Shown here: positions 18,211 to 21,424 of the stretch, piece after piece
How positions within the stretch are numbered: the stretch's first letter is position 1
How the letters are laid out: every line of letters begins with the position of its first letter
From: a virus
Lineage: Duplodnaviria > Heunggongvirae > Uroviricota > Caudoviricetes
Strand: one strand, 5' to 3'
Length of the DNA stretch: 41,073 nucleotides
IMG/VR virus record: IMGVR_UViG_2537561979_000009
Coordinates: 1 to 41,073 of that record
Program-made: the position numbers and the translations under genes
The notes under the pieces: model-generated
What the model was told of the DNA's origin: nothing
What the model saw: only the letters and a program-made list of their open reading frames with translations
Databases searched by the model: none

Positions 18211-18413
18211 AACCTCACTCCCAGCGGACGACGGCGACGTCGGGTTGTCCCCAGTACCGACTCCGCATCATTGATCGCCCGGTTAAGCTCATCCAGAGAA
18301 GCCGCCGTATATTCAATTCTGCGACCATCTTTCTGGACAGACACCACCCGTTTACCGGTTAATAAATCAAGGCGCGCCTGACGCAGCGCCTGCAGTTCAG
18401 CGACTGTAACCAT
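18207..18413 (-). CDS. W: Head-tail joining protein W
   Basis: 68 aa, ...LTGKRVVSVQKDGRRIEYTAASL..., lambda W-like. Confidence 0.9.
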   Translation of the reverse strand: MVTVAELQALRQARLDLLTGKRVVSVQKDGRRIEYTAASLDELNRAINDAESVLGTTRRRRRPLGVRL

Positions 18414-20325
18414 TCACTCCTCCGGACAGCTTCGCTGCCAGTTCTTTAAGGGTTGGCCGGGTCGTCTCTTCTTCCCGGGATTTTGCCAGTACAGCCAGAT
18501 CAAGCTGCCAGCGTTGCACGGACACACGTAATGCCGCGTAGGCATACACCAGGCAGTCCAGCGCTTCGTTACGCCGCTTTTTGTTATCCCACAGCAGACG
18601 CATCTTTCCTTTTTCCCACTTCTCCACAAGCTCTTCCGCGACCAGTTGCTGCGCCTCTGTCTGCGAAAAAATCTCCGGATCATCAGGAAAACGGATGGCA
18701 TACGACGTGGATTCATCCGCAGGCGTGGGAGCGGCTTTCATACGGGCATAGAGAATTTCTTTTGCGGTGTCCGTGCCCACTTCACACAGATACACGCCCC
18801 GCTGATTGCGGGTTTTTGGCATGGTGATCACCGGCTTGCCATAGACAGATGCGCCTTTTACCGGCAGCACCCGGAAAACACCGTGTTTTTTTGACCTCTG
18901 ATAAACGATTTCGCCATCGATCCCCCCGATGTCCCAGCAGACACGGGAAATGGTCATTTCGGTTCCGTCTGCATGGCGGTATTTTTTGTTGATCGCCGCA
19001 TCCACACGTAACAGCGTCTCTTCCTCATCGGGACGTCCCATAATGATGATTTTATCCACCAGAAAGGCTTCCTCTCCCGGAGCCCATCCCCAGACATACA
19101 TCTCAAAACGGTTTCGCTGCGAGTCAATGCCCGCCGTCAGATAAACCACCCGGGCAGGCACCGCCGCCGTGTAACGCACAACCTTATCCATCAGTACCTG
19201 GTGATCGAGTTTTTCGCCCACGGCCTCTTCCCAGGTCTCGCCCAGCGTGGTGTTCACAAAGGTTTTCAGGCCGTTGGGATCTTTCAGTGCATCCAGCCAG
19301 TCATAGACTATCTGTACCCAGGTGGTGAACGGACTGTACGCCGTCCAGATATGGAAAGTGATGGAGCGCGGCGGCGGAATTTCATCACCCCGGGCGCTGA
19401 AAAACATCAGGCCGTCACGGGTCCACATGCCCGTGTTTTCACAGATCCACCGCCCGTTACTCTGGTCAAGCTCAGACTGATGGATCACACAGCCATGATG
19501 CTCACAAAGGTAGAAAACGCTTTCGGGGCTGTCCTTCTCCCATTTAAGGCCAAAAGGCGTGGATTCATCGCCAAATTTCAGATACTGCTCCTCCCCACAG
19601 TGCGGGCAGGGCACATAAAAACGCATGAAATGTGCCGACTCGTTAGCGGCTTTTTCGATCTGGCAGGAGCCTTTGATTTTAGGCGTCGAGCCGCGAATGG
19701 ATTTTGGCCATACAGAGCCCTCAATACGCTTATCCCCCAGCAGGGTTGGCGAGCCCTCTTTTTCAACATCCGGTTCGAACGAGGAAAGCTCGTCATAGCA
19801 GACCACGTCCACGGATTTTTCACGGTAGTTTTTTGCTGCCGCACCACCCAGGCACCAGAAACCGACGCCCGATGAAAAGCGTTTCAGCGTGAGAGTATTG
19901 TCACGATGTTTACGCCCCAGCCATGGAGAAAGGTCTTTCAGACATGGCACATCCCGAATCGTCGCCTCCACGTGAGACTTCATAAAATCTTCAGCGGCAG
20001 AATCCGTGGGCTGAAAAAGCAGACTGTTTCGGGATTTATGCTCAATAAAATACCCGACCACCCCCAGCAACATCTTTGTATAACCAATACGGGCAGATTT
20101 AATCAGGTTAACAGTGCGAATCAGATCGTTGCCCATACAGTTCATGATGGCGATCTGGAACGGCAGCGTTTTCCATTCTCCCTCACCATATGAAGATTCT
20201 TTAGGCAGATAATAATTTTGATCAGCCCATTCAACTGGCGTCACCGGCAATGCCCTTATCAGGGGCTGTAATGCTGTTGTGACAGCACTGATCATATTAT
20301 TCAGTTGTTGCTCTGATATATTCAT
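18397..20325 (-). CDS. A: Terminase large subunit A
   Basis: MNISEQQLNN... then strong lambda gpA-like sequence; start at internal MNIS chosen over the longer ORF start at 20382. Confidence 0.93.
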   Translation of the reverse strand: MNISEQQLNNMISAVTTALQPLIRALPVTPVEWADQNYYLPKESSYGEGEWKTLPFQIAIMNCMGNDLIRTVNLIKSARIGYTKMLLGVVGYFIEHKSRNSLLFQPTDSAAEDFMKSHVEATIRDVPCLKDLSPWLGRKHRDNTLTLKRFSSGVGFWCLGGAAAKNYREKSVDVVCYDELSSFEPDVEKEGSPTLLGDKRIEGSVWPKSIRGSTPKIKGSCQIEKAANESAHFMRFYVPCPHCGEEQYLKFGDESTPFGLKWEKDSPESVFYLCEHHGCVIHQSELDQSNGRWICENTGMWTRDGLMFFSARGDEIPPPRSITFHIWTAYSPFTTWVQIVYDWLDALKDPNGLKTFVNTTLGETWEEAVGEKLDHQVLMDKVVRYTAAVPARVVYLTAGIDSQRNRFEMYVWGWAPGEEAFLVDKIIIMGRPDEEETLLRVDAAINKKYRHADGTEMTISRVCWDIGGIDGEIVYQRSKKHGVFRVLPVKGASVYGKPVITMPKTRNQRGVYLCEVGTDTAKEILYARMKAAPTPADESTSYAIRFPDDPEIFSQTEAQQLVAEELVEKWEKGKMRLLWDNKKRRNEALDCLVYAYAALRVSVQRWQLDLAVLAKSREEETTRPTLKELAAKLSGGVNGYSR

Positions 20326-20806
20326 CGAGTAAATCCGGTAATTTATCCCCTGCCCGCGCACACTGATTTGCCCCCTTCGCAATAAGGGTTTTCAGATGGT
20401 CAAGATGGCGCGGTGTTAAATCAGGAAACTGTCGTTGCATGGATAAAGGGATGGAATCAAGCGTACTGGATAACGCCATTGCCAGCTTGCTGAGGGCAAA
20501 AATACAGAACCCGGTGTCAATAAGTTTTCCTTTTGACACCTCATTTTTTAACTGCTGTGTAACAGCCTGTTCTGCTGTCAGTTCCCATCTGGCAATAAGC
20601 AATTTCTCCTCATAGTCGTCTTCGCTATCGCCATCAGGCACATCGTTTTTACTTCTTCTCAGATACGATATGTAAAAATCACGCCAGGCATCCAGATCCA
20701 GTTGCCCTCGCTTATTCGATATCGGGGCACCCGGCAATTTCTGCAGTCTGCGAAGCTGGCGATCGGTCAGACTCAAATGCCTGGCAACTTCAGTCTGCGT
20801 AGCCAC
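20297..20806 (-). CDS. Nu1: Terminase small subunit Nu1
   Basis: 169 aa directly upstream of A and next to cosB; C-terminal half lambda Nu1-like. Confidence 0.85.
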   Translation of the reverse strand: MATQTEVARHLSLTDRQLRRLQKLPGAPISNKRGQLDLDAWRDFYISYLRRSKNDVPDGDSEDDYEEKLLIARWELTAEQAVTQQLKNEVSKGKLIDTGFCIFALSKLAMALSSTLDSIPLSMQRQFPDLTPRHLDHLKTLIAKGANQCARAGDKLPDLLDEYIRATTE

Positions 20807-20884
20807 TGTTCACCTCGCAAAAAATCTCCCCTCATGCGTTTTAAACATGCATCTTGCGAGCAACTTTATGCAAACGCACGCATA

Positions 20885-20980
20885 TGTCCGGTTTGTTTGT
20901 ACATTTTTTGCACATGTCCGGTTCGCAGAAAGCATGTTTTTATATTTTTCATATAGTTAACTTGCAGAGAAACCGGACAT
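20885..20980. repeat. cosB-like repeats: three copies of CATGTCCGGTT (two direct, one inverted) between Nu1 and cosN
   Basis: Seen at about 20883-20893, 20913-20923 and inverted at 20972-20982; the position matches terminase R sites. Confidence 0.6.
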
Positions 20981-21018
20981 GGATCCCGGAAAATTTTCAT
21001 AAATAGCGAAAAACCGCG

Positions 21019-21030
21019 AGGTCGCCGCCC
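21019..21030. other. cosN, 12-nt cohesive end (complement of GGGCGGCGACCT)
   Basis: Plus strand AGGTCGCCGCCC with flanking sequence that is the reverse complement of the lambda left end GGGCGGCGACCTCGCGGGTTTTCGCTATTTATGAAAATTTTCCGG as I recall it. Confidence 0.85.
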
Positions 21031-21229
21031 CGTAACGGGTCCACATGCCGGAAAGGACCCGCAAAATGATAATAATTATCATCTACATGTCACAACGTGC
21101 ATCTACGCCATCAAACCACGTCAAATAATAAATTATGACGCAGGTATCGTATTAATTGATCTGCATCAACTTAACGTAAAAACAACTTCAGACAATACAA
21201 ATCAGCGACACAGAATACGGGGCAACCTC

Positions 21230-21424
21230 ATGTCAACGAAGAACAAAACCCGCAGAACAACAACCCGCAACATCCGCTTTCCTAACCAAATGATTGAACA
21301 AATTAACATCGCTCTTGAGCAAAAAGGGTCCGGGAATTTCTCAGCCTGGGTCATTGAAGCCTGCCGTCGGAGACTAACGTCAGAAAAGAGAGCATATACA
21401 TCAATCCAAAGAGATGATGAATAA
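21230..21424 (+). CDS. Small protein, 64 aa, possibly ribbon-helix-helix; resembles the DLP12 YlcI family by size and position
   Basis: Only plus-strand ORF between cos and Rz; family assignment is from memory and unverified. Confidence 0.4.
   Translation: MSTKNKTRRTTTRNIRFPNQMIEQINIALEQKGSGNFSAWVIEACRRRLTSEKRAYTSIQRDDE

What the first reader, a model, noticed from the sequence alone, without database searches (positions are those of the whole stretch)
20885..21082. cos site with lambda-like cosN, three R-like repeats, and a perfect 17-bp palindrome beyond cosN
cosN and its flank reproduce the lambda left cohesive end, and three CATGTCCGGTT repeats lie between cosN and Nu1. On the other side of cosN is a perfect palindrome ATGATAAT-A-ATTATCAT at about 21066-21082, which resembles an IHF or Fur-box-like site and could be a packaging or regulatory element.
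Basis: partly seen in the sequence, partly recalled or inferred. Interest (0 to 1): 0.4.

Follow-up and report, generated by a model that had tools for sequence, protein, structure and literature searches.

The report
Lambda-type cos with known Fur box
This is an ordinary lambda-type phage DNA-packaging site, and the palindrome beside it is a copy of a binding site for the host iron regulator Fur that was already shown experimentally in E. coli K-12 prophages, so it is regulatory and not needed for packaging.

Summary
Read on the minus strand, the window has a lambda-like cos: cosQ (21054-21060), cosN (21019-21030), an I2-like AT tract, three R repeats (20971-81, 20913-23, 20884-94), then Nu1 and terminase A. 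From lambda bp ~55 leftward through cosN and cosQ, identity to lambda-like phages is 93-96%. The cosB with the repeats is not lambda's.

The 17-bp palindrome (21066-21082) matches the Fur 7-1-7 consensus TGATAATnATTATCA perfectly. It is identical to the DLP12 nohB Fur site and homologous to the gel-shifted Qin nohA site. A degenerate copy in CFT073 lies under a Fur ChIP-exo peak, and terminase and head genes there rise in a fur mutant. Lambda, 434 and phi80 carry the same box.

In cos sites collected without reference to the box, it sits 3-7 bp upstream of cosQ in most phage lineages despite unrelated upstream flanks. It tracks the terminase operon. It is absent from the functional cos1 and cos2 of the satellite EcCICFT073 and from Gifsy-1, so it is dispensable for packaging. 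The IHF reading fails.

Side result: the window's cosB is the same type as EcCICFT073 cos2.

Verdict: new member of a known kind; moderate interest.

The parts
18397..20325 (-). Terminase large subunit gene (lambda A homologue). The start is taken at MNISEQQ by analogy with lambda gpA; the mechanical ORF extends to 20382.
   Evidence: ORF and translation. The similarity to lambda gpA is recalled from memory. TerL homologues lie downstream of related cos sites.
20297..20806 (-). Terminase small subunit (Nu1/TerS), 169 aa, GTG start preceded by AGGTGA. The C-terminal part is Nu1-like. The N-terminal DNA-binding domain is not the lambda type.
   Evidence: Pfam Phage_Nu1 matches only residues 49-150 (E = 1e-18); this N-terminal domain co-occurs with this cosB type in 14 phage loci.
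20884..20894 (+). R1 repeat (TATGTCCGGTT on +; lambda-orientation bp 137-147).
   Evidence: Conserved in PICI cos2 and in phage loci.
20913..20923 (+). R2 repeat (CATGTCCGGTT on +; bp 108-118), 30 bp from R1.
20924..20970 (.). AT-rich spacer between R2 and R3, at the position of lambda's IHF site I1. It has no IHF core consensus match with 1 or fewer mismatches.
   Evidence: The spacer is conserved in PICI cos2. The I1 position in lambda-like cosB is taken from PMC4669245.
20971..20981 (-). R3 repeat (CATGTCCGGTT on the minus strand; bp 50-60), at the position of lambda and N15 R3.
   Evidence: N15 R3 at bp 48-59 is taken from PMC4669245.
20982..21013 (-). I2-like AT-rich segment between cosN and cosB (lambda bp ~18-50), nearly identical to lambda.
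   Evidence: alignment. The I2 extent is taken from PMC4856287.
21019..21030 (-). cosN: the 12-nt cohesive-end sequence GGGCGGCGACCT, identical to lambda.
21054..21060 (-). cosQ (GGGTCCT), the packaging-termination signal, identical to lambda 48473-48479.
   Evidence: A 7-bp cosQ is annotated in the phage 434 record. Its role is described in PMC4669245.
21066..21082 (.). Fur box: a perfect 17-bp palindrome whose 15-bp core (21067-21081) is TGATAATAATTATCA, a 0-mismatch match to the 7-1-7 consensus. It lies 6 bp from cosQ.
   Evidence: It is identical to the DLP12 nohB site and homologous to the gel-shifted Qin nohA site. A ChIP-exo peak lies on the CFT073 homologue.
21066..21093 (-). Predicted sigma-70 promoter reading toward cosQ, cosN and Nu1: -35 GTGACA (21093-21088), 16-nt spacer, -10 TATCAT (21071-21066). 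The -10 and the spacer lie inside the Fur box. This is a prediction only, and it is specific to this lineage.
   Evidence: 10 of 12 matches, and the only promoter-like site in 20780-21260; the -35 is not conserved in other lineages.
21230..21424 (+). Divergent small ORF, YlcI/YnfO family (DUF3950), 64 aa.
   Evidence: Pfam DUF3950, E = 1.8e-20. Annotated as such in E. coli genomes and in phage 434.

Best explanation
The region is the cohesive-end packaging site of a lambda-like prophage, read on the minus strand. TerS (Nu1) binds the three R repeats of cosB, terminase nicks cosN, and cosQ signals termination. These roles are inferred from homology to lambda.

The 17-bp palindrome just outside cosQ is a binding site (operator) for the host regulator Fur. 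With iron bound, a Fur dimer sits on the 7-1-7 dyad. A second dimer probably sits on an overlapping site offset by 6 bp, as modelled for the nohA site.

In this lineage the box covers the -10 hexamer and the spacer of a predicted sigma-70 promoter. That promoter would start transcription within cosQ and read through cos into Nu1 and A. Fur would therefore hold down repressor-independent transcription of the terminase/head operon when iron is replete and release it when iron is scarce.

Shown (for homologous sites elsewhere): Fur binds in vitro and in vivo, and neighbouring genes are modestly derepressed in a fur mutant.

Inferred: binding to this exact copy (it is identical to the DLP12 site), promoter occlusion, and the direction of regulation.

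A plausible reason the box hugs cosQ is that this is the first free position upstream of the terminase operon that lies outside the tightly constrained cos. Staying there keeps the operator linked to the packaging module when phage arms recombine.
For: 1. Consensus match. The core has 0 of 14 mismatches to TGATAATnATTATCA and is the only hit with 2 or fewer mismatches in 41 kb.

2. Homology to tested sites. Chen et al. 2007 (PMC2189734) list the nohB site at 25.3 bits (coordinate 579824) and the nohA site at 22.3 bits. The nohA site was gel-shifted with Fur, was selected in vivo in an earlier study, and lies 233 bp upstream of nohA. The alignment shows the nohA site centre falls exactly on the lambda-type palindrome. 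DLP12 carries the window's exact 17-mer, with identical flanks for 50 nt upstream.

3. In vivo binding. Gao et al. 2023 (PMC10164565) report CFT073 ChIP-exo peak P53 at 1424699-1424711 under iron-replete conditions. It lies on GTGATAATTATTCTCGT, directly before cosQ at 1424714.

4. Expression. In the CFT073 fur mutant, TerL is +1.34, portal +1.57, the next head gene +2.13, and two upstream genes +2.33 and +2.95 log2.

5. Promoter. A promoter-like site overlaps the box, and it is the only one in the region.

6. Conservation. Among sites chosen only by a cosQ-cosN pattern, 26 of 51 flank-distinct lineages have 3 or fewer mismatches starting at -17 to -22 from cosQ (one at -17, the rest -18 to -22). 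The rest have 6 or more, so the distribution is bimodal. Background probability is about 0.003. The free central base of the dyad is among the most variable columns in the box, as the 7-1-7 model predicts.

7. Named phages. Lambda, 434 and phi80 have perfect boxes, and phi80's upstream flank is unrelated to lambda's.

8. Association. The box tracks the terminase operon: 16 box versus 4 no box with TerL downstream, and 0 versus 6 without (Fisher p = 0.0009). It does not track the DUF3950 gene (5 of 16).

9. Dispensable for packaging. EcCICFT073 cos1 and cos2 lack the box yet are functional.
Against: - No experiment has been done on this exact locus.
- The -35 element is not conserved across lineages. 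Lambda's own -10 is TATCAC, and phage 21/CFT073 has no good consensus promoter toward Nu1. The promoter-occlusion step may therefore hold only in this lineage, and the conserved role of Fur binding is not established.
- Gao et al. list no ChIP-exo peak at either K-12 copy. K-12 nohD and ylcI are almost silent in both wild type and the fur mutant.
- The CFT073 derepression is modest. It could be partly indirect, through general prophage activation in a fur mutant.
- The tight spacing to cosQ is not required by a purely transcriptional role.
Confidence: 0.78

Rival explanations
1. The palindrome is part of the packaging signal. It would extend cosQ and be bound by terminase, or by Fur acting as a host accessory factor, for example as a roadblock that slows the translocating motor just before cosQ so that termination cutting is efficient.
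For: The box is locked 3-7 bp upstream of cosQ in many lineages with unrelated upstream flanks. In the packaging direction the motor meets it immediately before cosQ. The standard 'complete cos' constructs (lambda 48446-182) include it, so they do not exclude a role. The phi80 record's 55-bp 'cosQ aka R4 region' covers it.
Against: EcCICFT073 cos1 and cos2 have no box, yet they are packaged by lambda and phi80 terminase. Gifsy-1 and seven terminase-linked cos sites lack it. cosQ is treated as a 7-bp element. The box-to-cosQ distance varies over about 5 bp, roughly half a helical turn, which does not fit a rigid complex.
Confidence: 0.1
2. The palindrome is the operator of the neighbouring small DUF3950 (YlcI/YnfO) protein, or it mainly controls that divergent gene and not the terminase operon.
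For: The DUF3950 ORF is the divergent neighbour here and in lambda, 434, DLP12 and Qin. By symmetry the box also offers TATCAT as a -10 on the plus strand. Genes on that side rise in the CFT073 fur mutant.
Against: Only 5 of 16 flank-distinct box lineages have a DUF3950 gene within 700 bp. In phi80 the upstream gene is co-directional. The only -35 candidate on that strand is AGGACC, inside cosQ, at 3 of 6. The PICI has a YlcI/YnfO gene but no box at its cos sites. Fur binding itself has been shown experimentally.
Confidence: 0.08
3. The palindrome is an IHF site belonging to the cos architecture.
For: The sequence is AT-rich. IHF sites are known in cos (I1, I2, I0).
Against: There is no match with 1 or fewer mismatches to the IHF core WATCAANNNNTTR on either strand in 20800-21240. 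The annotated IHF sites of phage 21 are all on the cosB side of cosN.
Confidence: 0.02
4. The palindrome is a chance sequence, or a passively inherited part of the conserved cosQ-cosN block, with no function of its own.
For: Perfect palindromes with 8-nt arms are expected about 1.4 times per window of this size. The K-12 copies show no ChIP-exo peak and almost no expression.
Against: The mismatch distribution is bimodal and the background is about 0.003. The box is better conserved than the spacer that separates it from cosQ, and its free central base varies. Fur binding has been shown experimentally.
Confidence: 0.03

Closest known systems
Fur binding sites upstream of nohA (Qin) and nohB/nohD (DLP12) in E. 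coli K-12 (Chen et al. 2007, PMC2189734; Vassinova and Kozyrev 2000 as cited there)
   Same: It is the same locus by homology. The window's 17-mer and 50 nt of upstream flank are identical to the DLP12 site. The Qin/lambda version differs at the free central base and at one flanking base. The distance to cosQ and the neighbours (DUF3950 gene on one side, Nu1 homologue on the other) are the same.
   Different: Here the site sits in a prophage that keeps full-length Nu1 and terminase A genes downstream and has a different cosB and TerS. The published work treats the site as a promoter site of nohA/nohB. No paper in the searched library contains both 'cosQ' and 'Fur'.
Bacteriophage lambda cos (cosQ, cosN, I2, cosB with R3-I1-R2-R1)
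   Same: cosQ and the 12-nt cohesive end are identical. I2 is nearly identical. R3 is at the same distance from cosN. There are three R repeats with an AT-rich spacer between R3 and R2, and Nu1 and A follow.
   Different: The R sequences are unrelated to lambda's. R1 has the same orientation as R2, whereas in lambda R1 matches R3. The 8 nt in the middle of the cosQ-cosN spacer differ. The TerS N-terminal domain is not the lambda winged-helix type by Pfam.
cos2 of the phage-inducible chromosomal island EcCICFT073 (Fillol-Salom et al. 2018 and 2019)
   Same: It has the same cosB type: R3, the AT-rich spacer, R2 and R1 at about 90% identity and the same spacing, next to lambda-like cosQ and cosN.
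   Different: cos2 has no Fur box and no terminase genes downstream, and it sits inverted 810 bp from cos1. The authors reported that they could not find a phage cosB in the island.
Phage 21 and N15/Monarch cosB specificity classes
   Same: The principle is the same: shared cosQ and cosN, with divergent R sites matched to a divergent TerS DNA-binding domain.
   Different: The R sequence and the TerS N-terminus differ. The only close database phages are the PhiR12_x series, at 92%. Specificity has not been tested.

Membership tests
Lambda-like cos site | 12-nt 5' cohesive-end sequence closely matching lambda's cosN | tested here: met
   GGGCGGCGACCT is identical to lambda. The actual virion ends were not determined.
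Lambda-like cos site | 7-bp cosQ (GGGTCCT) about 23 bp upstream of cosN | tested here: met
   Window 21054-21060, with the same spacing as lambda 48473-48479.
Lambda-like cos site | cosB with repeated TerS-binding R sequences, R3 about 50 bp from the end, and an AT-rich or IHF site between R3 and R2 | tested here: met
   R3 is at bp 50-60, R2 at 108-118 and R1 at 137-147. The repeats co-vary with the TerS N-terminal domain. No IHF consensus was found in the spacer. R1's orientation differs from lambda's.
Lambda-like cos site | Terminase small and large subunit genes immediately downstream | tested here: met
Lambda-like cos site | Terminase cleavage at cosN producing the virion ends | not testable with these tools
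   This needs sequencing of virion DNA ends after induction.
Fur box (E. coli Fur operator) | Match to the 7-1-7 dyad TGATAATnATTATCA (19-bp Fur box) | tested here: met
   0 of 14 mismatches. The identical DLP12 site scores 25.3 bits in Chen et al.'s model.
Fur box (E. coli Fur operator) | Fur protein binds the site | not testable with these tools
   Shown for homologues only: a gel shift of the nohA site and a ChIP-exo peak on the CFT073 site. No peak is listed at the K-12 copies.
Fur box (E. coli Fur operator) | Overlaps a promoter whose activity depends on Fur and iron | tested here: inconclusive
   A predicted promoter overlaps the box here, but its -35 is not conserved. Adjacent genes are derepressed 2.5- to 8-fold in the CFT073 fur mutant. 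The K-12 copies are silent.
IHF binding site | Core consensus WATCAANNNNTTR | tested here: not met
   No match with 1 or fewer mismatches in 20800-21240 on either strand.
Packaging signal (extended cosQ) | Present in all functional cos sites served by lambda-type terminase | tested here: not met
   Absent from the functional EcCICFT073 cos1 and cos2, from Gifsy-1 and from seven terminase-linked cos sites.

The most novel reading that the evidence does not exclude
The Fur box may be a conserved fourth element of the lambda-type cos neighbourhood. Through it the phage would read host iron status at the packaging site itself. Fur bound 3-7 bp before cosQ would gate transcription entering cos and the terminase operon, and would also influence cos cleavage or packaging termination, for example by slowing the incoming motor or by shielding cos in lysogens from stray terminase. 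Under this reading, iron limitation would change virion production or chromosome cutting at prophage cos sites. This link is not discussed in the packaging literature I could search.
Probability: 0.12. Interest if true: 0.6.

Novelty: new member of a known kind. Interest (0 to 1): 0.38.

Why it matters
For annotation, the palindrome can be labelled as a Fur operator and cosQ can be added. The cos should be described as lambda-type cosQ, cosN and I2 joined to a non-lambda cosB and TerS pair.

Two things may interest specialists. First, a strong Fur box sits next to cosQ in lambda itself and in most lambda-type cos phages, and sequence matching this region occurs in about 4000 of 5426 complete E. 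coli genomes. Its role in phage biology is untested, and no paper in the searched library links Fur to cos. Second, the window's cosB type matches the unexplained second cos site of the satellite EcCICFT073. That points to phages of this class as natural helpers that would not need the Rpp redirecting protein, and it offers an explanation for why such islands carry two cos sites.

Tried and rejected
- The primary cosQ papers (PMC1461673, PMC47553) are not held, so I could not read whether the palindrome was ever mutated.
- The supplements of Beauchene et al. 2015 are not held.
- A search linking Fur, lambdoid phages and terminase found only an unrelated report of P2-type prophage induction in a Yersinia fur mutant.
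- Rfam gave only a sub-threshold PrrF hit (20 bits against a gathering score of 90, E = 0.78), which I treat as chance.
- The palindrome folds only into a weak AU-only hairpin (-5 to -9 kcal/mol), so it is not a terminator.
- I looked for a conserved -35 in either direction across lineages and found none.
- The DUF3950-operator idea was tested by co-occurrence and rejected.
- No protein-homology, structure-prediction or fold searches were run, because the question concerned DNA sites and the proteins were already placed by Pfam.

Full report
**What is in the sequence**

The terminase genes lie on the minus strand: Nu1 at 20806-20297 and A from about 20325 to 18397. The cos site is therefore read in reverse.

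In lambda orientation the order is:
- the palindrome, 21082-21066
- a 5-nt gap (6 nt to the 15-bp core)
- cosQ GGGTCCT, 21060-21054
- a 23-nt spacer
- the 12-nt cohesive-end sequence GGGCGGCGACCT, 21030-21019
- an I2-like AT-rich tract
- R3 CATGTCCGGTT, 20981-20971
- a 47-nt AT-rich spacer
- R2, 20923-20913
- R1, 20894-20884
- the Nu1 GTG at 20806

The third repeat is 10 of 11. R2 and R1 are direct repeats 30 bp apart and both are inverted relative to R3.

**Is it more than chance?**

The 10-mer ATGTCCGGTT occurs three times in the 41-kb window, all inside 98 bp, against 0.04 expected per strand.

A perfect palindrome with 8-nt arms is not remarkable in itself. The window has three, and Markov simulations average 1.4. 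Its significance comes from what it matches and from where it recurs.

**Relation to lambda**

Megablast to phage records covers only window 20986-21240, at 93-96% identity. A pairwise alignment shows near-identity to lambda from lambda bp ~55 leftward through cosN and cosQ and on to lambda 48150. The exception is an 8-nt patch in the cosQ-cosN spacer.

The palindrome aligns to lambda 48451-48467. Lambda has TGATAAT-C-ATTATCA there (48452-48466), itself a perfect 15-bp dyad, 6 bp before cosQ (48473-48479).

To the left of 20986 the similarity to lambda ends. The cosB and the first part of Nu1 match only the PhiR12_x phages, at 92%. Pfam's Nu1 model covers only residues 49-150 of the TerS, so the N-terminal DNA-binding domain is of another type.

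**Identity of the palindrome**

Its core matches the Fur 7-1-7 consensus TGATAATnATTATCA with no mismatch. That consensus is established knowledge (Baichoo and Helmann 2002), cited from memory. It is the only hit with 2 or fewer mismatches in the window.

Chen et al. 2007 (PMC2189734) list strong Fur sites upstream of the two Nu1 homologues in E. coli K-12 cryptic prophages:
- nohB (DLP12): 25.3 bits, third in their Table 4 of strong Fur clusters.
- nohA (Qin): 22.3 bits plus an overlapping 12.6-bit site 6 bp away, 233 bp upstream of the gene. Fur shifts this site in a gel. An earlier study cited there had selected it in vivo.

I fetched both K-12 loci and aligned them with lambda and the window. 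The Qin site is the lambda version of the palindrome, and its centre is exactly 233 bp from the nohA start. The DLP12 site is the window's 17-mer, with identical sequence for 50 nt upstream. After allowing for the known coordinate shifts between genome versions (my own arithmetic), the published coordinates fall on these palindromes. From memory, the nohB region was also recovered in the original Fur titration screen of Stojiljkovic et al. 1994. I could not check that paper.

**In vivo evidence from a fuller prophage**

Gao et al. 2023 (PMC10164565) list a Fur ChIP-exo peak in CFT073 at 1424699-1424711 under iron-replete conditions. It lies between two transcription units, one of which is the terminase, head-tail joining and portal operon.

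In the CFT073 sequence that peak lies on GTGATAATTATTCTCGT, a 2-mismatch copy of the box, immediately before cosQ at 1424714 and cosN at 1424744. Phage 21 has the same version.

In their table, positive values mean up in the fur mutant. TerL is +1.34, portal +1.57, the next gene +2.13, and two genes on the other side +2.33 and +2.95 log2.

Limits: the changes are modest and could be partly indirect. No peak is listed at either K-12 copy, where the two near-identical copies may also hinder read mapping. The K-12 genes are nearly silent in both backgrounds.

**How widely the box accompanies cos**

- Of 125 sites, 78 have distinct sequences in the 40 nt before cosQ.
- After collapsing sites with similar upstream flanks, 51 lineages remain. 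Of these, 26 have a 7-1-7 match with 3 or fewer mismatches starting 17-22 nt before cosQ (one at -17, the rest at -18 to -22), and 25 have 6 or more mismatches. None fall in between.
- The background chance of a match with 3 or fewer mismatches in such a window is about 0.003, an upper bound.
- The DNA upstream of the box is unrelated between lineages. The short spacer to cosQ varies in length and sequence. Within the dyad, the free central base is among the most variable columns. Column information values in that table are inflated, because sites were anchored on their best match.
- Among named phages, 434 and phi80 have perfect boxes, and phi80's upstream flank is unrelated to lambda's. Phage 21 has the 2-mismatch version. 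Gifsy-1 has none.
- Records annotate only the 7-bp cosQ (434), an R4 box (21), or a broad 55-bp 'cosQ aka R4 region' that happens to cover the box (phi80).
- No paper in the searched library contains both 'cosQ' and 'Fur'.

**Regulatory element or packaging element?**

Three comparisons bear on this.

1. Terminase context. Among true cos sites, recognised by the I2 sequence, 59 of 66 followed by a TerL gene have the box, against 7 of 23 not followed by one. After collapsing related flanks the counts are 16 versus 4 with TerL and 0 versus 6 without (Fisher p = 0.0009; the lineages are not fully independent).

2. The satellites. The box-less sites without terminase are phage-inducible chromosomal islands. 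In CFT073 itself, EcCICFT073 has cos1 (cosQ at 1387528, followed by the 144-aa ORF matching RppA's length) and an inverted cos2 (cosQ at 1388338). Neither has anything closer than 7 mismatches to the box. Both cloned cos sites support transfer by lambda and phi80, and deleting both abolishes island transfer (PMC6092414 and PMC6739421). The box is therefore not required for packaging by lambda-type terminase.

3. The neighbouring gene. The box does not follow the DUF3950 gene: only 5 of 16 flank-distinct box lineages have one within 700 bp. This argues against the box being that protein's operator.

The IHF idea fails a direct consensus scan.

**Mechanism**

In this window the only sigma-70-like site between 20780 and 21260 is on the minus strand. 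Its -35 is GTGACA (21093-21088), the spacer is 16 nt, and the -10 is TATCAT (21071-21066), for 10 of 12 matches. The -10 and the spacer lie inside the Fur box, which is the usual layout for Fur repression. Transcription would begin within cosQ and run through cos into Nu1.

This is a prediction. The -35 is not conserved in other lineages; its match distribution is close to chance. Lambda's -10 ends in C. Promoter occlusion may therefore be specific to this lineage.

What is conserved is Fur-box-like sequence next to cosQ and linkage to the terminase operon. My inference for the tight spacing is that cos is too constrained to hold an operator, so the nearest free position upstream of the operon is just outside cosQ. 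Staying there also keeps the operator linked to the packaging module when phage arms recombine.

I put about 0.9 on 'Fur binds here', about 0.45 on 'it represses a promoter reading into Nu1 in this phage', and 0.78 on the overall statement that this is a Fur operator with a regulatory role and no packaging role.

**The three repeats**

In the collected phage loci, 14 have this cosB layout, with R3, R2 and R1 at fixed offsets. Every one encodes the window's TerS N-terminal domain: 13 at 98-100% identity, and one diverged at 74% that lacks an exact R1. They sit on several different upstream flanks, and all have the Fur box.

The same cosB, including the AT-rich spacer, is present at about 90% identity in EcCICFT073 cos2 and in related islands. 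The sequence then diverges.

This supports the repeats as a functional TerS-binding unit of a specificity class distinct from lambda, 21 and N15, in the sense described in PMC4669245. Specificity itself has not been tested.

**Exclusions**

Rfam gives only a sub-threshold hit. The palindrome's hairpin is weak and AU-only.

**Verdict**

The finding is a correct description of an ordinary lambda-type cos.

The window adds a member with a less-studied cosB and TerS pair. The comparative results raise two testable questions: why a Fur box is kept beside cosQ in most lambda-type phages, and whether phages of this class are the cognate helpers for the islands' second cos.

Noticed in passing
window 20884-20985; L250 (NC_004431) cos2 at ~1388338 and downstream; L007, L015, L049, L052, L093: The window's entire cosB (R3, AT-rich spacer, R2, R1) is about 90% identical to the cosB of cos2 of the satellite island EcCICFT073 and its relatives. 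The island's authors reported that they could not find a phage cosB there. Phages of the window's class may be cognate, Rpp-independent helpers for cos2.
   Followed up: partly
L015 4161-4757, L093 8924-9520, L049 1584-2180: Island variants without rppA have two inverted cos sites 557 bp apart. The 518-bp segment between them occurs in both orientations (99% identity when inverted, with the outer flanks unchanged). Cutting both cos sites would leave identical cohesive ends on the segment, so terminase cleavage and re-annealing could flip it. Homologous recombination between the inverted cos cores could do the same.
   Followed up: partly
L015 4200-4400 versus L111 (downstream of cos at ~1050): The other arm of these rpp-less islands carries a second phage-type cosB (GAGATTTTTTGAGGGGGTGGTTGTTG...). 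It is about 93% identical over roughly 190 nt to the cosB of phage contig L111, whose TerL is 95% identical to the window's. The islands therefore seem to mimic two different phage cosB types.
   Followed up: partly
window 21031-21053: The middle of the cosQ-cosN spacer (GGCATGTGGACCC) differs from lambda (GGTGATCCGACAG). It resembles the spacer of EcCICFT073 cos1 (GGCATATGGACCC).
   Followed up: no
L250 (NC_004431) 1380473-1380652: EcCICFT073 carries its own YlcI/YnfO-family (DUF3950) gene, far from its cos sites. In lambda-type phages this gene family is the divergent neighbour of cos.
   Followed up: no
L020, L036, L043, L047, L057, L086, L111 (viral contigs): Seven cos sites with terminase genes downstream have no Fur box. 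In several, the break in similarity to lambda-type flanks falls right at cosQ. They could serve as natural box-less controls.
   Followed up: no
window 20965-21093 (minus strand): The only Rfam match is a far sub-threshold hit to PrrF, a Fur-regulated Pseudomonas sRNA family (20 bits against 90, E = 0.78). I treat it as chance.
   Followed up: yes
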